NCBI GenBank assembly: GCA_000004985.1
Contig: GG738888.1
Strand: one strand, 5' to 3'
DNA: 64,000 nucleotides
From: Naegleria gruberi
Lineage: Eukaryota
Shown here: positions 30,200 to 41,510 of the stretch, in pieces
Numbering within the stretch: the stretch's first letter is position 1
How the letters are laid out: each line of letters starts with the position of its first letter
Translations under genes and position numbers: made by a program
The notes under the pieces: generated by a model
What the model was told of the DNA's origin: nothing
The model's database searches: none
Seen by the model: only the letters and a program-made list of their open reading frames with translations

Positions 30200-31546
30200 T
30201 TATTGTTGTTGACTATATCGTTCTTCCAAAGTTTCCAAAACTGAGATGATTGTCACGAGACCTTGAATAAAGTTGGTGTCGTAAACTGGTTGATGGAGGA
30301 GGTTTTGGTGAACGTGGGAAAAATCAATAATTTTCATTGAAAAGTTCTTGTTTCTATCGTAAACAATTAAAAGTGAGCTAGCATACATTCTAAATTTGTC
30401 GTTTTTCTCTGTGAATAAATGGTGAATCTTTCTTACTTCTTTCAGTAAAAGATTAGTGACGTGTCTTCCTACACTAACACGAGTTTCTTCATCAAACCCA
30501 TTACTAAATAAGAAAGTTTCCATTGCTTCAACAATAGTATCAGGGGTGACACTTCTTCCCCACTGTCTATCAAAATATTGATATTCCTTTTTTACAATGT
30601 CATAGATTTTAGCTCCACTAATTCTCATTCCTAGTTGGTGTTGATAGACGTACTTGGATTCTTCTTCCAAAATCTTTTGTGGTGAGGCATCTTCGCCATA
30701 GGTTCTTTGACCCATTTTAATGTCCATCACATTTGGATGATCCATATTAGCTGTAATATCCTCTAATACTATAAAATCGATTGGTTTGAAAGTTTGTTGT
30801 GAAGGAAGTGTTGGTGTATTGGCAGGTGACACTGATGATGAGGACACTTCCGATGAAGATTGACTATTCAAATCACTATTAGTACTAACACCTGCTTGTT
30901 GTAAATATAAAGTATCCATCACTGAGCTGTTTGATGTAATATCAGGTATTTCTCCTTCTTCCAAAGGTACAAAAGTTCTTTGCACTCCATAATATTTCGG
31001 AATGAAAGGAAGAAGATAGGCTGCCAATTTAACTTGATTCTCATAGAAATGAACCTCTGACCACGATCTCTTCTTTCCTGGTTGTATTGCCTTGTATATT
31101 TTACAATCCCTGACCATCAATGAAAGTTCCTTTTTTTTCTTTCTCGTTCCATGCCCAGCCACTTGATTCATACAAGCCTCCAAACAATTTATATCAATAG
31201 GTGTAATCTTCAACTCTCCATAATCTGTTTTTTCAATATAGTACTGTTCTTGTTGATCAGCAACTAATGATGAGGATGACTCTCCACTGACGGCGGACAT
31301 TTTTCGCTTTTTTTTTCTTCTTCGTTTTTTCAATTGTTTTGTATTGATGTTGTCTTGTTGTTGTTGTATTGTTGGTGATGATAATGATGATGGAAAAGAA
31401 TCTTCATCTGGTGTTGAGCAGTATTCTTCTTCTCCTTCATCATCATCATTCGTTGGTGCATTAAAGATATTGTTATTATTAACGATCATTTGAAGATTGA
31501 ATTGGTTGCTGTTATCGGAATACAGATGAGTTTTAAAAGTTTTCAT
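30200..31546 (-). CDS. Inositol polyphosphate kinase (IPK superfamily, IP6K/IPMK-like), 448 aa
   Basis: True ATG at 31546. It carries the IPK signature PNVMDIKMGQRTYGEDAS (PxxxDxKxG), SSLLIVYD (SSLL motif) and IDFSH (catalytic IDF). An N-terminal basic NLS-like KKRRRKKKRK is present. Confidence 0.85.
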   Translation of the reverse strand: MKTFKTHLYSDNSNQFNLQMIVNNNNIFNAPTNDDDEGEEEYCSTPDEDSFPSSLSSPTIQQQQDNINTKQLKKRRRKKKRKMSAVSGESSSSLVADQQEQYYIEKTDYGELKITPIDINCLEACMNQVAGHGTRKKKKELSLMVRDCKIYKAIQPGKKRSWSEVHFYENQVKLAAYLLPFIPKYYGVQRTFVPLEEGEIPDITSNSSVMDTLYLQQAGVSTNSDLNSQSSSEVSSSSVSPANTPTLPSQQTFKPIDFIVLEDITANMDHPNVMDIKMGQRTYGEDASPQKILEEESKYVYQHQLGMRISGAKIYDIVKKEYQYFDRQWGRSVTPDTIVEAMETFLFSNGFDEETRVSVGRHVTNLLLKEVRKIHHLFTEKNDKFRMYASSLLIVYDRNKNFSMKIIDFSHVHQNLLHQPVYDTNFIQGLVTIISVLETLEERYSQQQ

Positions 31547-31700: not shown

Positions 31701-32672
31701 TTAGATATGAGACTTGCCATCAAGAATGATAAAAGAGTGATCATTGTAAAAATTGAAAATGTACCAATACCAGTAACAACAACGGAAGAAACCAAATGTG
31801 AAATTATTGATAACTGCACCCAAGAAGTATCTACAGAACATATCAGTAGTATCAGCAGTCCATTCGAATCTCATTTCAACTGGTGAAGTAATTGGTTGAC
31901 CAATGATTGGATATTGTGAGCTATATTGAACATTGTAATTGATTTGAGTTTTCTTATTTCTTTCTCTCAATTGAGAAGCAACTTGTGGTGGAATAACAAC
32001 GAATTGACCTCTTCCATATCTAACTTGTTCCAAAAACTTTGGATTATAATATTGGTGGACGAAAGGATATAAGAAACCAAATGTCAAAATAGCACAAGTC
32101 TTCATCAAGGTATATAACAATTCTCTTTGCCATCCAAGATGAACACCATAATAACGAATCACTCCACGACAATCATTTTCAGGTTGCCAAACCACAAACT
32201 CATCCAAATTTGGAAAACTTCCACTTGCTTCCATCTTTTCATCTTGAGTTGGTTTTCTTGGCTTTACCTCCTCTGCCCAATGAATTCTCTCATCCAAATG
32301 AGAATAATAATGAACTGTCATTTGTCCACTAATGTACCAAATGCCGAGCGTCAAATAATTCAACATGTTATTCCAGAAACATCTAAAAATAATGCCAAAA
32401 CCATGAGAAGTATCATAATTCAAACGACGATTACCAATTCTCATCTTTCTAACTTCGTAACGAGTAATTTGATTGACGAATAAGAGTTCTGAAAGTCCCA
32501 ATGTGATTACCTTGAACAAGAAGAACATTATTGCTTCACATGGGTTGTGTTCTCTGCAACCAAAGATTCTATTCTTGACATGACGTTCTTGGTTGAGTTG
32601 GTGGATATTGAGAGGGGTCTTTTGCGAGGAAGGAGAGGTGGAGGTAGCTCCTTGCATTTCGTATGAAGCCAT
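31701..32672 (-). CDS. Hypothetical multi-pass membrane protein (~324 aa)
   Basis: Long ORF. The best ATG, at 32672 (MASYEMQG...), is preceded by an A-run. Several hydrophobic segments are present. The 3' end is uncertain: a TM-like alternative frame at 31613..31819 suggests possible unresolved splicing. No family is recognised. Confidence 0.45.
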   Translation of the reverse strand: MASYEMQGATSTSPSSQKTPLNIHQLNQERHVKNRIFGCREHNPCEAIMFFLFKVITLGLSELLFVNQITRYEVRKMRIGNRRLNYDTSHGFGIIFRCFWNNMLNYLTLGIWYISGQMTVHYYSHLDERIHWAEEVKPRKPTQDEKMEASGSFPNLDEFVVWQPENDCRGVIRYYGVHLGWQRELLYTLMKTCAILTFGFLYPFVHQYYNPKFLEQVRYGRGQFVVIPPQVASQLRERNKKTQINYNVQYSSQYPIIGQPITSPVEMRFEWTADTTDMFCRYFLGAVINNFTFGFFRCCYWYWYIFNFYNDHSFIILDGKSHI

Positions 32673-33146
32673 TTTGAATAGTTTTTTTTTGAGTATTGTG
32701 AAGAAGTGAAGAAGAGAAGAATGAGGGGAAAATTTATTCGAAAGTTGTTTTAAGTTTGTTTTCATGTACTTTCTATATTTGTTATCTTCATGTGGTTTCA
32801 CTAAATTTCAGTATGCGAAACATCACAATAAACTTGTTACTTGTCATTTTCCTTCTTCATTTGACTGAAGTCTAACATATTACACAAGACATATCCTAAT
32901 TCACTGAAGTATATTCAAGACATTAGACTTACTAAACTTGGAAGGTTGTCCAAGTTTTTTTTCTTCATGCTGAAAACAAACTTGGCATCTCATGACAACT
33001 AACACAAATTCGACTCGGAATACAATTGTAATAACTAAGGTTTTTACAATTTCATACACTTTCTTTTCTTTTAATAGAATCGAATTAACCAAAGCTCTTT
33101 TGGTTTATTGGCCAGTAGTTCTATAATATTAATATAATTATAAAAA

Positions 33147-34303
33147 ATGCGTAAACGGACAGAAAGTGATTCTTCTCTGTTGAAATTACCTACAGAAATT
33201 CTTAGAGTCATTCTCTCCTTTCTGAACTATCCGAATACATCAGAATATTGGAAAGTTGCAGACGAAACACTTTTCCATCATCCTATTTCAATGATACTTG
33301 AAAATATGAAACGAATGGTTTTAAATTTGCAATCTATTTGTTCATTCTTTCAAAATGATGACATTCCGATTGGAAGGGAATTAAACGAATTTTGGATAAT
33401 TTTAATCCAGAGAGAATTTTACTTTCCAAAAGGATTTATTGAAAGTAAAAAGGAAAAGATCAGACCAAAAGCTAAAAGATGTTATCTACTATTACATAAA
33501 ATGGTAGAAATGAAATTTAATAATGATTGTTGTGCTATTCGAAACATTCAACATTCAGTTCAAGAATCTAATAATTTCAAAGTGTGTGTAATGGGAGAAG
33601 TAGGAGCAGGAAAATCAAATCTATGTAGAAGATGCGCCAATGATGATTTCTTTGAAGTGTTTGATATGGGAACTGTGGAAGAAATTTTTAGAAAACAAAT
33701 TAGTGTCAATAATCAAAAATTTGACATTGAATTTGAAGAACCTTCCATTTATGGTAAGTTTATTTGAGGATTTTTGAATTCAAAATTGGAATAGATGAGT
33801 TTGAAGCACTTAGAGATATGTCAGTTCGTAACTGCCAAGTGTCAATTATTGTATTTCCATCGATTCATGATTCTGTAAAATCACTAGAACATAGTTTTTC
33901 TCATTTGTATTATGAAATGCATCGAATATTGAGAATTAAGGATTGTGATGATACTCCATGCATAATTGCATTCACAAAAAGTGATTTACTATCCGAATCA
34001 GCAAGTAATAATTCTCAAATCGATACCAAAACTAAAGAAATACTTATTAGAAGATTAATTCGAAACAGGGTCATGCTAAATTGTGGAATTGTGCACATGA
34101 GTGCTAAAACTGGACAAGGTACTGAGGAAATTATGAAAGAAATTATTAATCGATATTTAATTTATTCAACCCCAAAAAATCCAACAAAAAAACAAAATTA
34201 CCAAAATTGGAATACTGAAATAATTTTACAAAAAATAATTAATAATGAAAAGGAAATTACAATATTATATCCAATCAAAAAAGGGGAGAGAAATGTAACA
34301 TGA
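33147..34303 (+). CDS. F-box domain protein fused to an atypical Ras-like small GTPase domain, 2 exons
   Basis: True ATG at 33147. An F-box (LPTEILRVILSFL) is followed by a G1 P-loop KVCVMGEVGAGKSNL and a switch I T (MGTVEE). Exon 1 ends at 33753. The 41-nt intron at 33754..33794 runs GTAAGT...GGAATAG. Exon 2 (33795..34303) continues ...DEFEALRDMSVRNCQVSIIVF, has G4 TKSD and G5 SAK. The join aligns with Ras ILDTAGQEEYSAMRD, but DTAGQ is replaced by EEPSIY. Confidence 0.75.
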
Positions 34304-34374
34304 TGTAAAAAAGGCAAATTTGTAAGTTTTACAAATTTAGAAAGCCAAAACTTTTTGTTTTTCAATACAAAAAA

Positions 34375-35676
34375 ATGCCGTCACATAAACGAAGCCGATC
34401 CTCGCTCACTTCAACAACATCATCATCAGCATCTAGCGAGGAAAATTCTTCACTGCAAGAAAAGCCTAGCAAGAAAACAAAACGTCCAAAGGCTTTGAAA
34501 AAAGTTTGTTCGGATGAAGATTTGGATGATATTCGTATTTATTTATTAACTAGAAAGGTTGATGATACAAGTGATGATTCAGATGAGAAGAATTGGAAAC
34601 GAGCTGATTATAGAGTGTTGAAGAATATTCCAAATCATGATGATGAGGATGATGAGGTTGAACCTGAATCCGAGCCTGAAGTTGTAGAAAGATCTATTGC
34701 TTGTTGTATTAGTGAATTTAATTCTGGACTGTCGGATGATACTGGAGGAGAGGAACAAGTTCGTATTGGATTTTTGTTGGAAAATAAGAGTTCTATTGAT
34801 GTTGCCTATGTAATTGGGTTTAATGGATTGGAGGCTGCTTCAAAAATTCTTAAGAGTGAACGAACAACACTGATTGGAGATTATAGAAATAATACCAAAG
34901 GCTTTTCACAAGACTTTATTGTCAGCAAGAGTAAAATGGCTCAGGACGAAAGTGAAGTAGTTGATCGTGCACTATTAGATAAATTAGGTGTTATTGAGGT
35001 GAAGATTCATCGTGCCCAGAAATCTCATCAGGGAAAATCTCATGGTGATAATTCAAAAATTAAATCCACTGAATCTCCACAAATCAAAATTAAAGAGTCC
35101 ATGATAAAGACTTCAGCCGCAATGAGCTTGAATTTTGGAGCTGTCAAACAAATCCCTTCCCAAAAAGCTGGTGGATTGACAACTTATTTCGATTATAAGG
35201 AGCTTCTTATTAACCTTGAAATTAAATATCGTAATTACATTGGATACTTGGTCGAGTTAGCCAAAGCAAATGTTCCAATTGAGCAAAAGAAAACAACTAC
35301 GGAGTCAGAAAAGAATGAAGAAGAGATTATTGAAATTGAGAGTGATGAAGATGATGAAATTCAAGAAACTACTGCACCTCCACCAATCCAAACCACTCCA
35401 GCTTTGGTGTTAACACCATTCAAAAGTCAATCCTTAATGAGCAAAGTGAAAGAAAATGTGTCACAACTAGAAGCCATGTCAACAGAAGACCTTATCAAAT
35501 TTATCAAATTAATAGACGAAAAGCTATATGAATCCGTGAAAGATCCTTTCAGAAATGAAAACATTGATGGCAGTGTCTTTTTAGCTCTCTCAGGCCAAGA
35601 ATTAAAAGAATTAGGTATTAAAATTGGAGAACAAATCAAAATCAAGCAAATCATTCAACAAGTAAGAGAGAATTAA
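34375..35676 (+). CDS. Acidic Ser/Asp/Glu-rich protein with a C-terminal SAM-like domain (433 aa)
   Basis: True ATG at 34375. There are long acidic tracts (DDEDDEVEPESEPE, ESDEDDEIQE). The C-terminal ~65 aa (LEAMSTEDLIKFIKLIDEKLYESVKDPFRNENIDGSVFLALSGQELKELGIKIGEQIKIKQII) fit the sterile-alpha-motif pattern. Confidence 0.6.
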   Translation: MPSHKRSRSSLTSTTSSSASSEENSSLQEKPSKKTKRPKALKKVCSDEDLDDIRIYLLTRKVDDTSDDSDEKNWKRADYRVLKNIPNHDDEDDEVEPESEPEVVERSIACCISEFNSGLSDDTGGEEQVRIGFLLENKSSIDVAYVIGFNGLEAASKILKSERTTLIGDYRNNTKGFSQDFIVSKSKMAQDESEVVDRALLDKLGVIEVKIHRAQKSHQGKSHGDNSKIKSTESPQIKIKESMIKTSAAMSLNFGAVKQIPSQKAGGLTTYFDYKELLINLEIKYRNYIGYLVELAKANVPIEQKKTTTESEKNEEEIIEIESDEDDEIQETTAPPPIQTTPALVLTPFKSQSLMSKVKENVSQLEAMSTEDLIKFIKLIDEKLYESVKDPFRNENIDGSVFLALSGQELKELGIKIGEQIKIKQIIQQVREN

Positions 35677-36923: not shown

Positions 36924-39900
36924 TTAATGGTCGTGTTCTTGTGACTTTTTCAATTCCTTCATATAATCCAATTCTCCCATGACAATTGATCTCAAATAGG
37001 AAGCGTTATTTCTTCCAGTTTCCTCAATCAAAGAAGCAAAGATGGATTGTTCACTTCTGGTGAGCAAGTTTCTTGGAGTATCGAATTCAGCTAATTGACC
37101 TGCCTTCAAAGCAACAATTCTATCAGAGTCAATGATAGTGTTGAGTCTGTGAGCAACTGTCAAGACAGTTCTGTCAGAGAATTCAGTTCTAACAGTTTCT
37201 TGAAGAAGGGCATCAGTTTGCATATCAACATTGGCAGTAGCTTCGTCCATGATAAGAATCTTGGTCTTTCTCAAAATTGCTCTGGCAACACAGATTAATT
37301 GTCTTTCACCAATAGAAAAGTTTTCACCATATTCAGCAACCTTGTAAGAAAGTTGACCTTCCAATGACTTGATCTTTTCCTTAATGTGAGATCTTTCCAA
37401 AGCTTGCCAAATTTGTTGATCAGTATATTCATCAAATGGATCCAAATTGAATCTGACAGTTCCTGAGAATAAAATTGGATCTTGAGGAATAATTGCCAAT
37501 TTAGATCTGAGATCATGTAAACCAATCTTGGAAATATCTACACCATCAACAACAATTTGACCTTGAGCTACTTCTGTAATTCTGAACAGAGCTTGCATTA
37601 AGGTTGATTTACCACAACCAGTACGTCCCACAATACCAATCTTTTCAGTTGGGTTTACATGGAGGCTGAGATCTCTCAACACAAAGTCGAGTTCTTCTCT
37701 GTACTTGAAGTAGACGTTTTTGAGTTCAATTTCACCCTTTTGTGGCCATTCTTCAGCTGGCTTGGTTTCTGGAATACTCTTTGGAGCTTCTTGTGGAATT
37801 TCTTCACAATAGTAGAGAACTCTTTCAACAGAGTTCATGGCAGCTTCAGCTTCTGTTGCACAACGAACCAACCAAGAGGCAGTCGAAGTAACAGAAAGAG
37901 CATATGACAATGACAGACCAGCCATAGCAGCTGTTGTACCTCCAACTAGGGCAGCAAGTGCAGCAAATAGAATAACTACAGCTCCCACCAATTCCAAACG
38001 GAAAGCCAACCATCTTTGAGAAACAAGTTGAGCAAAGTAGGCCTTGTTATTTCTGTCCAATAACTTGTGATTTTCCAATACGAATTCTTCTTGTCTTCTG
38101 TATGCTCTAATAGTGGCAATACCAGTGAGGGTTTCACCAAAGTGTGCAAAGAGTGGACTTCTACTGATGGAATCAAGTCTCTTCAATTCACGAGAAGTAC
38201 TTCTGTAATACTTTTGAACAAAATAGTAAACCAACAAGACTGGAATAATTGGAATGATGAAAAGATAACTGACAGTAGCAATCAAAATCAAAGTACCCAA
38301 TACTGAAAAGATGCAATTCAGCAACATTCTCAAAGTACCGATAAGACTTCCGTCAATACTTTCAGTATCCTTAGAGAATCTGTTAATAATACGACCGACT
38401 GGATTGGTGTCAAAGAAATGAGTTGGTGAGTTCATAATCTTATCCAAAGCCTTGGAGTGCAATTGTTTGGCAGCTCTAAGACCAGAAAAACCAAAGGAAA
38501 GTTCTTGGAAGAACATAAAGACGGCACTTCCAACACCCAAAGCAACGTAAATACCAATAAACATTGGCAAATTGTAGCCTAATTCGGTAGGAGTGGCTGG
38601 TAGAGTGCCATTAGTAGCATTATTGACATCATAAGATGAGAATACGGTATCAAAGAGTTCAGTGGAGTTGTACATTGTACTATTGGATGCAGTACCATTG
38701 GTTGGCAGTATACTTTGTGTGGCAATAGTTGACCATTCAGCCAAGAACCAAGATGTCATAATTTGAGAAGCCTGATTCAATGTAAAGAGTAAAAGAATGG
38801 CCAACAAGACAATATAACCACCAGCATATCTAATATAACTCTTATAAACACTAGCCTTGACACTACCTTCAGCACGTTCCTCAGTAGACATTAATTTACC
38901 ATCTCTCTTCTTGATACTCTTTTCTCCTTCTTCTTCCTTTTCTTTCTTTTCTTCAGTTTCTTCTTCCTTGTCTTGCTTGAAATAGCTCTTGAGCATGGAA
39001 GAGAACTTGGAATCACTTTGAACTAATTCAGAGTGAGAGCCTTGAGCAACAATGGCACCATTTTCAACCACAATTACATGATCAGCATCCTTCAAATATT
39101 GCCATTGGTGAGTGACTAATACACGAGTCTTGTTTGATAATAATCCACAAATACAATTTTGGAATACAGATCTACCAACATGTTGATCCAATGCAGAGAG
39201 AACGTCATCGAATAAATAAACATCAGCATCAGAGTAAACTGAACGAGCTAAAGAAACTCTTTGCTTTTGACCACCTGACAAAGTGATACCCTTTTCACCA
39301 ATTTCAGTCATGTCTCCGGCTGTTAAAATTTCCAAATCATTTTCCAAGCAACAAGCTTCAATAGTCTTGTAATATTTTTCAGTATTGAAAGGATTTCCAA
39401 ACAAGATATTATCTCTTACAGTGGCATTTCTAATCCAGGCTTGTTGAGGAACATAGGCAACACTACCAGAAACTTGGAGGTTTCCTGATTGTTTGAACAT
39501 TTCACCGATAATTGCTGACAAGAGTGATGATTTACCAGAACCAACCAGACCCACAATAACAACCAAATCACCCTTCTTGACTTGAAGGTTAACATGTTGA
39601 AGTGTGAAGTCTTTCTTTTCTGGTGCTGATGCCTTTTCCTTATCATCTACAAATTGCAATTCACCTTCAGAAGCTTCTACTACCTCTTCCTCTTCTTCCT
39701 CACCTTCAGCAAGTTCAATAGTGACTTGATCTGCTTCTGCTTCTTCTTCATCTTCAAATTCATTGTACTTTTTCTTTTCAGTCTTTGATCCCTTACTCTT
39801 GGTCTTTGATTTGAGAGTAGGTTGAGCTGGCTTTTTGGCTTCAGGCTTCTTCTTATCCTTGCTTGCTGGTTCTTCCTTCTTTTCTTGGTTGGACTTCCAA

Positions 39901-41510
39901 ATAAAGGTACCATCTTCAATAATAATTGGACAATCAATATCAGATCCTAAAGTAATATCCTCAATTTCATCGGCAAGTAAATAGTTTTGAAGTCTGTCCA
40001 AACTGACCTTAGCTTCAGCAAGGAGGGCAAGAATAGTTGGCAAGAAGGTAGCTGGGAATCTCAACAAGTTGAAATAGGAAAGGGATGGGAAAATAATGTC
40101 AGCATCCAACAATCCACCAGTGGCAGCAAAGATAGCAAAAGTGGCAACACCGACAAACAATGGAGCCATAGTCATTAACATACTGGTAACAATACCAATA
40201 AATGTTGATTGAGTAATCTTCCACATTTCCTTATTTCTGATTTCCATAATCTTTTTTACAAATGAATTTTCCCAAGCATAGAATTTGATAATTCTAATAC
40301 CTTGAATAGCTTCATTAACAAACTTGATACGTTCACCAGTAAATTGAAGCATGGCCTTACGAATTTTTTGAACTACTCTGGCAATAGCACCATTTAAGGG
40401 AATAACAACAACAATAATAGCAACACCAGCTAAGGTTGACCAACCAATGAGTGAGAATAACATCGCCAAGCATACAAAAATTTGGAAAACACCACTCCAT
40501 GTCATGTGTAGATATGTCACTAGACCACAAAGCTTGTTAGCATCAATTGCCATATAATTGATAATATCACCAGAACTGATTTTTTGTCTTGCTGAATTGG
40601 ATAACCTTAAACTCTTTGCATAGATGGCAGCACTCAACCCTGTCTTGAGACGCATACCTTGTGACATGACAATGTGGAAATATTGTTGAATAAATAAAGT
40701 ACTAAATGTTTGAAGAAGGAAAAGCCCTAAAACTAATAAATAACCCTGATAAACTGGAACTGTCTCGGAATCTCTAATTGTTGAAATGATCATCTTTACC
40801 AAAATTGGACTGGTCAATTGAGAAATATCGTAGACAACTTTTAACAAACCAGCCAAGTAAAATCTGAGACCATATGTCTTGTGAATTGCATAAATTAAAC
40901 TTGGTTTGGATTGTTTTTTCTTCTTAATATTTTCATCGAGTTCGTGTGACTCGACATCTTGATGATCTTTTGCTTTGGCTGCTTCCTTGTCCCAATTCTT
41001 CTTAAAGTCATCGGAAAGGTATGCAGCTTCATCAACTTTTCTCAATTTATACAGATCAGATAATTGAAGAACCTTATTGTAACCAGTTTTCATCAATGGA
41101 TTAAACCACCAAAATGATAATCTGGAGAAGATGTTTGCTGTTTCTTCAGGACAGTCTTGTCTATTTTGTGTGTTTTCATTGAAAGAATTTATCAATGATG
41201 ATGAAAATGACAGGTATAATGATGATGGTATAATGATGACAATAAATACTAATTAGAAAACTAATAAATTACAAAATAAAACATACTGATGCTCCTCTGC
41301 AATTTGAAATTCATCCACTTCTTGAACATCTCTAAAGTATTGATCAACATTTTCAGCCATCTTTTTAGGCTCCGAAGCTTCTTCTTCAGTTTCTTTAAAA
41401 GCCAATTGAGGATTCATCACTGTAGGTTGTGAAGCTGTTCCTCTCGTAGCAACATTAGTAAAAACACCACCACCATCATTCTTATTGTATGTCGGCGATG
41501 GTTGCATCAT
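36924..41510 (-). CDS. ABC transporter, C subfamily (MRP-type, 'short' form TMD1-NBD1-TMD2-NBD2), 2 exons, ~1497 aa
   Basis: Exon 1 is 41287..41510, with ATG ATG at 41510 (MMQPSPTYN...). The 126-nt intron at 41161..41286 runs GTATGT...AAAATAG. Exon 2 is 36924..41160. The join gives ...AEEHQ-QDCPEETANIFSRLSFWWFNPLMKTGYNK, the typical ABCC N-terminus. There are two NBDs with Walker A (GLVGSGKSSL, GRTGCGKST), ABC signatures (LSGGQKQRVSLAR, FSIGERQLICVAR) and Walker B (DDVLSALD, IMDEATANVD). Confidence 0.9.

What the first reader, a model, noticed from the sequence alone, without database searches (positions are those of the whole stretch)
33147..34303. F-box fused to a Ras-like GTPase domain that lacks the DxxGQ switch-II catalytic motif
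The N-terminus is a clear F-box (LPTEILRVILSFL). The C-terminal two-thirds align end to end with Ras: G1 GEVGAGKSN, switch-I Thr, G4 TKSD, G5 SAK. The G3/switch-II sequence DTAGQE is replaced by EEPSIY-DE, so there is no Gly60 and no catalytic Gln61. The 41-nt intron sits exactly at this position. An SCF-adaptor F-box joined to a probably GTPase-dead (constitutively GTP-bound or nucleotide-free) Ras-like module suggests a GTPase-shaped substrate-recognition or regulated degradation adaptor. I do not know this fusion as a described family.
Basis: partly seen in the sequence, partly recalled or inferred. Interest (0 to 1): 0.6.

Follow-up and report, generated by a model that had tools for sequence, protein, structure and literature searches.

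The report
Divergent Naegleria Ras with F-box-like head
This is a two-exon Naegleria gruberi gene for a fast-evolving Ras-type protein whose GTP-switch motif is broken and whose N-terminal extension begins with an F-box-like helix. The gene is already catalogued, and F-box–GTPase fusions are already described in this amoeba, so it is a modest addition to a known theme.

Summary
The sequence observation holds. Exon 1 (33147-33753), a 41-nt GTAAGT…TAG intron (33754-33794) and exon 2 (33795-34303) give a 371-aa protein. It has a bona fide Ras domain (Pfam E=4e-13). G1, the switch-I Thr, G4 (TKSD) and G5 (SAK) are intact, and DTAGQ is replaced by EPSIY.

The "clear F-box" is overstated. Only the first helix (LPTEILRVILSFL) resembles an F-box. 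All Pfam F-box scores are below threshold, helices 2-3 give a marginal signal, and AlphaFold was uninformative.

The fusion is not undescribed. The identical 371-aa model is listed as a newly annotated N. gruberi "Ras" in Herman et al. 2021 (Table S8). That paper reports F-box fusions to Rab, Rho, Ran and Gα domains, but does not flag one for this Ras subgroup. The gene belongs to a Naegleria-specific clade of N-terminally extended Ras paralogs. Most members have lost Gly60/Gln61 and most end in a CaaX box.

New here: a 98.8 %-identical copy from a metagenome ends in CNMM. The window allele has a 1-nt deletion that frameshifts away this prenylation signal.

Verdict: new member of a known kind, low-to-moderate interest.

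The parts
33147..33753 (+). Exon 1 (residues 1-202 plus the first base of codon 203). It encodes the N-terminal extension, P-loop, switch I and beta3.
   Evidence: ORF list. Spliced translation. Identical to the curated model in Table S8 of PMC8296547.
33754..33794 (+). 41-nt phase-1 intron, GTAAGT...AATAG, directly after the Gln61-equivalent codon.
   Evidence: The same junction is used in NCBI XP_002668758.1 (P0001) and in the curated model. The same intron is present in L002 with 2 mismatches and in L001. No transcript evidence was found.
33795..34303 (+). Exon 2 (residues 203-371 and stop). It encodes the rest of switch II, G4, G5 and the C-terminal extension. The last 14 codons are in a shifted frame.
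33177..33227 (+). F-box-like helix 1, LLKLPTEILRVILSFLN (residues 11-27).
   Evidence: Pfam F-box/F-box-like match to profile positions 1-18, 11.6-13.7 bits, below cut-off. hhalign against an F-box alignment gives P 1e-8 to 5e-9, and 0 of 120-200 column shuffles reach it. L14 and P15 are nearly invariant in 11 paralogs.
33228..33314 (+). Variable insertion between helix 1 and the next conserved block (residues 28-56). It is absent in paralog XP_002668120.
   Evidence: Family alignments. Low AlphaFold confidence.
33315..33419 (+). Conserved blocks MVLNLQSICSFF (57-68) and LNEFWIILIQREF (79-91). They may correspond to F-box helices 2-3 (xVCKxW ... LW).
   Evidence: S63, F82 and W83 are nearly invariant. 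The alignment to F-box H2-H3 is collinear but marginal: P=0.023, with 5 of 120 shuffles reaching it. An earlier smaller profile gave no signal.
33468..33518 (+). Conserved basic helix KAKRCYLLLHKMVEMKF (108-124) that links the extension to the G domain. The family motif is ELKRKxLL.
   Evidence: R111 is invariant and L116 nearly invariant. A long helix is predicted in both AlphaFold models.
33594..33617 (+). G1/P-loop GEVGAGKS (150-157). The Ras position 12 is Val.
   Evidence: The allele/strain copies P0001, P0009 and L002 have GEGGAGKS.
33660..33683 (+). Switch I, FDMGTVEE (172-179). Thr35-equivalent T176 is retained and there is a one-residue insertion.
33735..33752 (+). Degenerate G3/switch II, EEPSIY (197-202). 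The changes are D57->E198, T58->P, A59->S, G60->I201 and Q61->Y202.
   Evidence: Ungapped alignments to Rap1b/KRas and to HRas and N. gruberi Ras.
33974..33985 (+). G4, TKSD (263-266).
34100..34108 (+). G5, SAK (305-307).
34220..34258 (+). Family-specific C-terminal helix IILQKIINNEKEI (345-357), which matches LLKxVIxxDxxxI of the paralogs. A 1-nt deletion relative to L002 sits in the T-run at ~34255-34257.
   Evidence: Family alignment. DNA alignment to L002 shows one extra T at 34257.
34294..34308 (+). Intact but out-of-frame CaaX box plus stop, TGT AAC ATG ATG TAA (C-N-M-M-*).
   Evidence: Three-frame translation. The L002 protein ends ...QKRGEKCNMM. Nine paralogs end in CaaX.

Best explanation
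The locus encodes one member of a Naegleria-specific, rapidly diversifying clade of Ras-family paralogs with three parts.

1. A ~140-residue helical N-terminal extension. Its first helix (LPxEILxxILSFL) is F-box-like, and the extension is most likely a strongly diverged F-box followed by a helical linker.
2. A Ras-fold G domain that keeps the guanine-nucleotide and Mg-binding motifs (GxxxxGKS, switch-I Thr, TKSD, SAK). It has lost the DxxGQ switch-II motif and carries Val at position 12. It probably binds nucleotide but neither hydrolyses GTP nor switches like Ras. This is a pseudo-switch.
3. A conserved C-terminal helix and, ancestrally, a CaaX prenylation box. The window allele has lost the box through a 1-nt frameshift.

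Inferred mechanism: in its intact form the protein sits on a membrane through the prenyl group. It uses the frozen Ras surface as a binding platform and uses the N-terminal helix to recruit Skp1/cullin. It would then either present partners for ubiquitination or control its own turnover.

Shown: the gene structure, the Ras domain, the motif states, clade membership and the frameshift. Inferred: nucleotide binding without hydrolysis, F-box ancestry, Skp1 binding and membrane anchoring.
For: Gene model and clade:
- Gene model. It is identical to the curated Table S8 entry ACER01000421.1.
- Ras domain; the AlphaFold model of paralog P0003 matches K/H/N-Ras.
- Paralogs with the same layout: P0003/XP_002675968 and P0010/XP_002668642, plus at least 10 further Table S8 sequences.

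Motif states in the clade:
- G3 loss is clade-wide. Of 13 N-extended paralogs, 3 keep Gly60 and 1 keeps Gln61.
- 11 of 14 keep GxxxxGK[ST], and 12 of 14 keep [NT]KxD.

F-box lead:
- Helix 1 gives hhalign P~1e-8, and 0 of 120-200 shuffles reach it.
- F-box-type Pfam models are the only families hit by more than one of 11 members: PF12937 in 5, PF00646 in 3, PF13013 in 1.
- The insertion-free paralog matches PF12937 positions 2-36 of 47, and another matches PF13013 positions 21-97 of 107.
- The alignment of helices 2-3 is collinear, P=0.023.
- Naegleria Rab-like GTPases carry bona fide N-terminal F-boxes in the same position, with a gradient of divergence of 33, 18 and 13 bits (PMC8296547).
- The N-terminal extension is at least as conserved between most paralogs as the G domain.
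- The extension is conserved in L001, where the P-loop and switch I are lost.

CaaX: the L002 copy ends in CNMM, the window keeps those codons out of frame, and 9 paralogs end in CaaX.
Against: - Every F-box score is below Pfam's gathering threshold.
- The family profile finds no F-box protein in PDB at E<=10.
- Helices 2-3 gave no signal with the first F-box profile (84 of 200 shuffles reached it). With the second profile the signal was only marginal.
- The conserved Trp of the F-box VCKxW motif is Ile/Leu/Phe here. A 10-30 residue insertion splits the putative domain.
- AlphaFold gave pLDDT 35-60 for the extension in the paralog model and 46 for the window N-terminus alone, so there is no structural support.
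- Herman et al. screened these proteins with SMART, Pfam and CDD and did not flag an F-box on any Ras row.
- There is no transcript evidence and no biochemical evidence.
- The window allele lacks the CaaX box and has Val at position 12. Rough dN/dS against L002 is ~0.5 from only 13 substitutions, which is compatible with relaxed constraint.
Confidence: 0.45

Rival explanations
1. The gene and the degenerate Ras domain are the same, but the N-terminal extension is not a working F-box. It would be a lineage-private helical module (autoinhibitory, dimerising or localising) that shares only an LPxEIL-type amphipathic helix with F-boxes. That helix would be a relic or a convergence. There would be no link to SCF ubiquitin ligases.
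For: - All F-box scores are below threshold, and PDB profile searches find no F-box.
- A control F-box profile of only 4 Naegleria sequences finds 29 F-box chains.
- Helices 2-3 are not significant or only marginal.
- A large insertion follows helix 1.
- The expert re-annotation did not flag an F-box on Ras rows.
Against: - Helix 1 similarity is far beyond the shuffled controls.
- The LP dipeptide is nearly invariant across otherwise about 20 %-identical paralogs.
- F-box is the only Pfam clan that recurs among the members.
- The genomic context is an organism where N-terminal F-box + GTPase is a common architecture.
Confidence: 0.35
2. This copy is a decaying or non-functional member of a birth-and-death gene family. 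The broken G3, Val12 and the C-terminal frameshift would be signs of pseudogenisation, not of a specialised function.
For: - A 1-nt deletion removes the CaaX box that paralogs and the L002 copy retain.
- 8 nonsynonymous against 5 synonymous differences to L002.
- Relative L001 has lost the P-loop Lys/Ser and switch I.
- Herman et al. describe birth-and-death evolution and pseudogenes in Naegleria GTPase expansions.
- No 1:1 N. fowleri ortholog is listed for any checked clade member.
Against: - The 371-codon reading frame is otherwise intact across two exons with good splice signals.
- Table S8 does not mark it as a putative pseudogene.
- Exons diverge from L002 at 1.2 %, against 3.1 % upstream and 4.9 % in the intron.
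- G3 loss is shared by most paralogs that keep intact ORFs and CaaX boxes, so it is a clade trait and not private decay.
- The frameshift may be an assembly error or a very recent allele, because the out-of-frame CaaX and stop are still perfect.
Confidence: 0.15
3. The F-box-like ORF and the G-domain ORF are two separate genes, or a different splice restores a canonical DTAGQ.
For: Two ORFs are listed mechanically. No transcript evidence was retrievable.
Against: - Exon 1 alone already contains the extension plus the P-loop, switch I and beta3.
- The Ras alignment runs ungapped across the junction.
- Paralogs P0003 and P0010 are single proteins with the same layout.
- No D..G peptide occurs in any frame around the junction.
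- The 12-nt-downstream acceptor deletes conserved residues.
- Two independent annotations use the same junction.
Confidence: 0.03

Closest known systems
Naegleria F-box-GTPase fusion proteins (Rab-like, Rho, Ran, G-alpha) and the N. gruberi Ras-family catalogue of Herman et al. 2021 (BMC Biol 19:142, PMC8296547, Suppl. Material 4 and Table S8)
   Same: - Same organism, and the very same 371-aa protein is listed (ACER01000421.1, 'Ras').
- Same layout as the Rab-like fusions: N-terminal F-box(-like) helix, ~100-residue helical linker, Ras-superfamily G domain, and a CaaX in some subgroups.
- Same lineage-specific expansion with no relatives outside Naegleria.
   Different: [quoted passage not shown] This row has no additional domain flagged.
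- The Rab-like F-boxes pass Pfam thresholds (29.5-33 bits). This one does not (about 12-14 bits).
- The G3 degeneration of the clade and the CaaX frameshift are not discussed there.
TbFRP, the FYVE-F-box-Ras-like GTPase of Euglenozoa (Exp Parasitol 2013, PMC3593210)
   Same: - An F-box placed N-terminal to a Ras-superfamily G domain in one polypeptide.
- It occurs in another discobid lineage.
- The authors also speculate about a link to SCF and rapid turnover.
   Different: - TbFRP has an N-terminal FYVE domain. There is no FYVE hit here.
- Its G domain is Rab18/Ypt6-like, not Ras/Rap-like.
- Its authors found no N. gruberi ortholog.
RhoBTB and Rab40 (own knowledge; RhoBTB in Naegleria is mentioned in PMC8296547)
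   Same: A Ras-superfamily domain is fused to a cullin-RING adaptor element: BTB for Cul3, or SOCS box for Cul5. RhoBTB's Rho domain is atypical and hydrolysis-deficient. This is the functional analogy for a 'GTPase-shaped ubiquitin-ligase adaptor'.
   Different: - The adaptor domain and the cullin differ.
- The adaptor is C-terminal to the G domain in both.
- Both are conserved widely in eukaryotes, whereas this clade is Naegleria-specific.
- The adaptor function is only hypothesised here.
Nucleotide-binding but catalytically impaired small GTPases or 'pseudoGTPases' (Rnd, RhoH, RGK family with DxWE, kappaB-Ras; own knowledge)
   Same: They retain the P-loop, NKxD and SAK motifs, with substitutions at the Gly12, Gly60 or Gln61 equivalents. 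Such proteins are constitutively GTP-bound or non-switching and are regulated by expression, localisation or degradation.
   Different: - They are not homologous subfamilies.
- Here Asp57 is also changed (to Glu) and Thr58 to Pro, a more radical G3 loss than in Rnd or RhoH.
- Nucleotide binding is untested.
FBXL2 (CaaX-prenylated F-box protein; own knowledge)
   Same: An F-box protein tethered to membranes by a C-terminal CaaX box. It is a precedent for a membrane-anchored SCF receptor, if the intact allele is prenylated and the F-box is functional.
   Different: FBXL2 uses LRRs, not a Ras fold, to bind substrates. There is no sequence relationship.

Membership tests
Ras family small GTPase (Pfam PF00071) | Profile match above the curated gathering score | tested here: met
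   49.6 bits against 21.6, E=4.4e-13, residues 145-322 matching profile positions 1-159 of 162. Rap1b/KRas at E~1e-14.
Ras family small GTPase (Pfam PF00071) | G1 P-loop GxxxxGK[ST] | tested here: met
   GEVGAGKS at 150-157. Position 12 is Val.
Ras family small GTPase (Pfam PF00071) | G2 switch-I Thr35 | tested here: met
   T176 in FDMGTVEE, with a one-residue insertion.
Ras family small GTPase (Pfam PF00071) | G3 DxxG(Q), the switch-II and catalytic Gln motif | tested here: not met
   E198-P-S-I-Y202 aligns with D57-T-A-G-Q61. No alternative frame or splice supplies it.
Ras family small GTPase (Pfam PF00071) | G4 [NT]KxD and G5 SAK | tested here: met
   TKSD at 263-266 and SAK at 305-307.
Ras family small GTPase (Pfam PF00071) | C-terminal CaaX prenylation box | tested here: not met
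   The window frame ends GERNVT. CNMM is present one frame off at 34294-34308 and in frame in the 98.8 %-identical L002 copy.
Ras family small GTPase (Pfam PF00071) | Guanine-nucleotide binding and GTP hydrolysis | not testable with these tools
   Needs recombinant protein.
F-box domain (Pfam PF00646 / PF12937 / PF13013) | Profile match above the gathering score | tested here: not met
   - Window: 11.6-13.7 bits against 20.5 (PF00646) and 12.3-12.4 against 24.3 (PF12937).
- Best in the clade: 17.1 against 21.6 (PF13013).
- Naegleria Rab-like controls: 29.5-33 bits.
F-box domain (Pfam PF00646 / PF12937 / PF13013) | Helix 1 motif LPxE[IL]LxxI[LF]xxL | tested here: met
   LLKLPTEILRVILSFL. hhalign P 1e-8 to 5e-9, with 0 of 120-200 shuffles reaching it. 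LP is nearly invariant in 11 paralogs.
F-box domain (Pfam PF00646 / PF12937 / PF13013) | Helices 2-3 (L..L..VCK.W ... LW) contiguous with helix 1 | tested here: inconclusive
   The alignment NLQSICSFF / NEFW is collinear, but P=0.23 and 0.023. Trp is replaced by an aliphatic or Phe residue. A 29-residue insertion follows helix 1.
F-box domain (Pfam PF00646 / PF12937 / PF13013) | Three-helix F-box fold | tested here: inconclusive
   AlphaFold pLDDT was 35-60 (paralog) and 46 (window N-terminus), too low for a fold search.
F-box domain (Pfam PF00646 / PF12937 / PF13013) | Binding to Skp1 | not testable with these tools
   Needs an interaction assay or a complex prediction.
Naegleria N-terminally extended Ras paralog clade (Table S8, PMC8296547) | Sequence listed in the catalogue, with the shared N-terminal blocks (LPxEIL.., NFQS.., FNEFW, LKRKxLL) and the C-terminal LLKxVI helix | tested here: met
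   The 371-aa translation is identical to the ACER01000421.1 entry. The blocks align in 11-15 paralogs.
TbFRP (FYVE-F-box-GTPase, Euglenozoa) | N-terminal FYVE domain and a Rab18/Ypt6-like G domain | tested here: not met
   No FYVE hit in Pfam at E<=10. The best G-domain relatives are Rap/Ras. The authors found no Naegleria ortholog.

The most novel reading that the evidence does not exclude
The whole Naegleria clade of N-terminally extended Ras paralogs, not flagged as F-box proteins in the literature, could be a family of prenylated, hydrolysis-dead Ras-fold proteins. They would work as membrane-bound SCF substrate receptors. A cryptic F-box split by an insertion would recruit Skp1, and the frozen effector face of Ras would serve as the substrate-recognition surface. 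This would extend 'GTPase-dependent ubiquitination' to the Ras family and give a natural example of Ras repurposed as a degradation adaptor.
Probability: 0.2. Interest if true: 0.6.

Novelty: new member of a known kind. Interest (0 to 1): 0.3.

Why it matters
If the N-terminal helix really docks on Skp1, Naegleria would have wired all major small-GTPase families, including Ras, directly to cullin-RING ligases. This clade would then show how a G domain loses its switch and is kept as a binding scaffold.

In practice the result mainly refines an existing annotation. It proposes a cryptic F-box-like head for a catalogued Ras subgroup. It documents clade-wide loss of Gly60/Gln61. It also shows that the reference allele lacks its prenylation box because of a 1-nt frameshift, which affects any experiment that clones this allele.

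Tried and rejected
- **Word-indexed homolog search.** The search with the spliced protein found nothing. With N-terminal profiles it returned only P0001, P0002, P0008 and P0012. It did not return N. gruberi RefSeq paralogs that are in the collection, so no deep alignment could be built from it.
- I used exon 1 alone and paralog P0003 instead.
- **AlphaFold uninformative for the extension.** Both jobs gave low confidence there. I did not run a fold search on the N-terminus. Foldseek on the paralog model only re-found Ras.
- **PDB profile searches.** The N-terminal profile hit only chance helical proteins such as ApoA-I and the beta2 receptor.
- **Weak single-member Pfam hits.** Forkhead (E=0.008), TnsA_C and others were each seen in only one member, so I dismissed them.
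- **Exact look-ups.** Neighbouring proteins and the spliced 371-aa and 373-aa proteins are not on record, so no transcript evidence and no public locus could be retrieved.
- **L001.** The contig ends 120 nt after the intron, so that relative's G4, G5 and C-terminus could not be read.
- **TbFRP homology.** This could not be tested because no sequence was available.
- **Alternative acceptor.** The acceptor 12 nt downstream was rejected because it deletes conserved DEFE.
Full report
**What is in the sequence**

The window is AT-rich (34 % G+C), gene-dense eukaryotic DNA. At 33147-34303 (+) there are two adjacent ORFs. A 41-nt GTAAGT…AATAG intron (33754-33794) joins them into a 1116-nt CDS of 371 codons.

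Exon 1 alone encodes the ~140-residue N-terminal extension plus the P-loop, switch I and strand β3. The intron only splits the G domain, in phase 1, in the codon immediately after the Gln61-equivalent.

The junction has four lines of support:
- The alignment to Rap1b/KRas runs ungapped across it.
- Paralog P0003 has the same spacing.
- The NCBI model of the second allele, XP_002668758.1, has EEPSSYDEFEALRDMS.
- The manually curated model in the literature uses it.

The other in-phase AG acceptor lies 12 nt downstream, not 14. It would delete DEFE, which is conserved. No frame around the junction encodes a D..G motif. I found no transcript-derived evidence: neither spliced protein is in the 15-billion-protein collection.

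**Organism and prior knowledge**

An exhaustive HMMER search with exon 1 found a 96 %-identical partial protein and two paralogs with the same layout. All three are from Naegleria gruberi NEG-M: XP_002668758.1, XP_002675968.1 'ras family member' and XP_002668642.1 'rab family small GTPase'.

The literature search led to Herman et al. 2021 (PMC8296547). Its Table S8 lists a protein identical to my 371-aa translation as a newly created N. gruberi gene model (contig ACER01000421.1). It is annotated 'Ras', is not marked as a pseudogene, and has no additional domain.

Supplementary Material 4 of the same paper makes two relevant statements:
- This points 'to GTPase-dependent ubiquitination'.

A FYVE–F-box–GTPase, TbFRP, is also described in Euglenozoa (PMC3593210). 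What has not been stated is an F-box on Ras-family members.

**The G domain**

The Pfam Ras match is far above threshold (49.6 against 21.6 bits). The motif states, aligned to HRas, are as follows:

| Motif | HRas | Window protein | State |
|---|---|---|---|
| G1 / P-loop | GAGGVGKS | GEVGAGKS (150-157) | intact; position 12 is Val |
| Switch I | Thr35 | T176 | retained |
| G3 / switch II | D57-T-A-G60-Q61 | E198-P-S-I201-Y202 | lost |
| G4 | NKCD | TKSD (263-266) | retained |
| G5 | SAK | SAK (305-307) | retained |

Position 12 is Gly in the other allele or strain copies.

From established Ras biochemistry, Gly60 senses the γ-phosphate, Gln61 positions the catalytic water, and Gly12 substitutions block hydrolysis. 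This predicts a protein that can still bind guanine nucleotide but is a poor or dead GTPase with an uncoupled switch II. This is inference, not a measurement.

The loss is a clade trait, not a private lesion:
- Among 13 N-terminally extended N. gruberi paralogs, only 3 keep Gly60 and 1 keeps Gln61.
- 11 of 14 keep GxxxxGK[ST], and 12 of 14 keep [NT]KxD.
- A canonical N. gruberi Ras has DTAGQ.

A 54 %-identical relative from a metagenome (L001) has gone further. Its P-loop is GENAGEEKL, switch I is deleted and switch II is shortened. It still keeps the N-terminal extension and β4 well conserved, and has the intron at the same place.

**Is the N-terminus an F-box?**

Sequence-to-profile evidence is weak:
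- PF00646 scores 11.6-13.7 bits (cut-off 20.5) and matches only profile positions 1-18 of 43, that is helix 1.
- A profile of 4 or 11 family N-termini finds no F-box chain in PDB at E≤10.
- As a positive control, a profile of just four Naegleria Rab-like F-boxes finds 29 F-box chains among its 32 hits.

Several results still point towards an F-box origin:
- F-box-type models are the only Pfam families hit by more than one of 11 members: PF12937 in 5, PF00646 in 3, PF13013 in 1.
- In the one paralog without the post-helix-1 insertion (XP_002668120), the match extends over positions 2-36 of 47. In XP_002680941, PF13013 matches positions 21-97 of 107 at 17.1 against 21.6 bits.
- Profile-profile comparison gives 72.7 % probability on helix 1.

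In split tests with column-shuffled nulls, the two halves behaved differently:

| Region tested | hhalign P | Shuffles reaching the observed score |
|---|---|---|
| Helix 1, first F-box profile | 1.2e-8 | 0/200 |
| Helix 1, richer F-box profile | 5.5e-9 | 0/120 |
| Helices 2-3, first F-box profile | 0.23 | 84/200 |
| Helices 2-3, richer F-box profile | 0.023 | 5/120 |

The greedy alignment is collinear in the expected register: NLQSICSFF on xxRVCKxW, and NEFW on the trailing LW.

Bona fide Naegleria F-box GTPases score 29.5-33 bits, and an unflagged Rab-like subgroup scores 18.2 bits. There is therefore a gradient of divergence, with this Ras subgroup at the far end.

AlphaFold could not settle the matter. 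The extension had pLDDT 35-60 in the paralog model and 46 in the isolated window N-terminus.

My reading is that F-box ancestry is more likely than not (about 0.6). Retained Skp1 binding is uncertain, with about 0.35-0.4 overall.

**The 3′ end**

A 2.4-kb metagenome contig (L002) carries a 98.8 %-identical copy with the same intron. Its only coding indel is one extra T in the T-run at window position ~34257. In that frame the protein is 373 aa and ends …NQKRGEKCNMM. This is a CaaX box like those of nine paralogs (CSLM, CTLH, CICM, CSMM, CNLM, CILC, CSVM, CFIM).

In the window the last 14 codons are shifted (…TILYPIKKGERNVT*). The codons TGT AAC ATG ATG TAA sit intact, one frame off, at 34294-34308. 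The reference allele has therefore either very recently lost its prenylation signal or contains a 1-nt assembly error. The curated literature model inherits this end.

Exon divergence from L002 is 1.2 %, against 3.1 % upstream and 4.9 % in the intron. There are 8 nonsynonymous and 5 synonymous differences. This suggests weak or relaxed constraint, but the numbers are too small to test.

**Mechanism and rivals**

Best-supported picture (0.45): a Naegleria-specific Ras paralog that is ancestrally membrane-anchored by prenylation. It binds nucleotide but does not cycle. It carries an F-box-derived head that may recruit Skp1/cullin, for presenting partners or for its own turnover.

The main rival (0.35) keeps everything except the SCF link. 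In that reading the extension is a private helical module.

A third reading (0.15) is that this allele is decaying. Supporting it are the frameshift, Val12 and a birth-and-death family. Against it are the intact 371-codon frame, exons more conserved than flanks, and the clade-wide nature of the G3 loss.

The two-genes or other-splice reading is effectively refuted (0.03).

**Comparison with known systems and novelty**

- It works like RhoBTB (pseudo-Rho + BTB/Cul3) or Rab40 (Rab + SOCS box/Cul5), if the F-box is functional.
- It resembles Rnd, RGK or κB-Ras-type non-hydrolysing GTPases in its G domain.
- It would resemble CaaX-anchored FBXL2 in topology.
- It is a member of the Ras family by profile, and of the catalogued Naegleria N-extended Ras clade by identity.
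- It fails the Pfam membership test for F-box.
- It lacks the FYVE domain that defines TbFRP.

Novelty: new member of a known kind. Interest is about 0.3. A specialist in Naegleria GTPases already has this gene in a table. The added value is the cryptic F-box-like head of the Ras subgroup, the clade-wide switch-II loss, and the CaaX frameshift.

Noticed in passing
window 34255-34308; L002 full length: The window allele has a 1-nt deletion in a T-run relative to a 98.8 %-identical metagenome copy. This shifts the last 14 codons and removes a CaaX box (CNMM). The CaaX codons are still intact out of frame at 34294-34308. The published curated model (Table S8, PMC8296547) carries the frameshifted end.
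   Followed up: yes
window 33600-33602 (codon 152): The Ras Gly12-equivalent is Val in the window but Gly in XP_002668758.1, P0009 and L002. This is a natural G12V-like polymorphism in a protein that already lacks Gln61.
   Followed up: partly
L001 4422-5092: A 54 %-identical relative comes from the same metagenome sample (ERZ929261). It keeps the N-terminal extension, the intron position and strand beta4. It has lost the P-loop GKS, all of switch I (a 20-residue in-frame deletion) and part of switch II. It may be a nucleotide-free pseudoGTPase or a decaying copy. The contig ends before G4/G5.
   Followed up: partly
Table S8 paralogs, window 34220-34258: The clade shares a conserved helix between the G domain and the CaaX box, LLKxVIxxDxxxI (IILQKIINNEKEI in the window). 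It has no Pfam match, and I know of no description of it.
   Followed up: no
window 34375-35676 (+): The neighbouring single-exon gene starts only ~70 nt downstream. It encodes a 433-aa acidic, Ser-rich protein with a sub-threshold DUF7918 match and a C-terminal SAM domain.
   Followed up: no
window 30200-31546 (-), 36924-41195 (-), 31701-32801 (-): Other neighbours are an inositol polyphosphate kinase (PF03770, E=1e-43), a full-length ABC transporter with two TMD-NBD halves, and a 366-aa ORF with no Pfam match directly upstream on the opposite strand.
   Followed up: no
P0008/P0011 versus P0010; P0012 versus XP_002682439: Intron positions differ between paralogs of the clade. In XP_002668642 the intron lies after the G3 region. 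In XP_002682439 it lies inside switch I. In the window gene it lies right after the Gln61-equivalent. This suggests intron gain or loss during the expansion.
   Followed up: no
tool behaviour: The word-indexed homolog search did not return N. gruberi RefSeq paralogs, or at first even the 96 %-identical P0001. The cluster look-up shows these are in the same collection. Absence of hits from that tool therefore should not be read as absence of relatives.
   Followed up: partly
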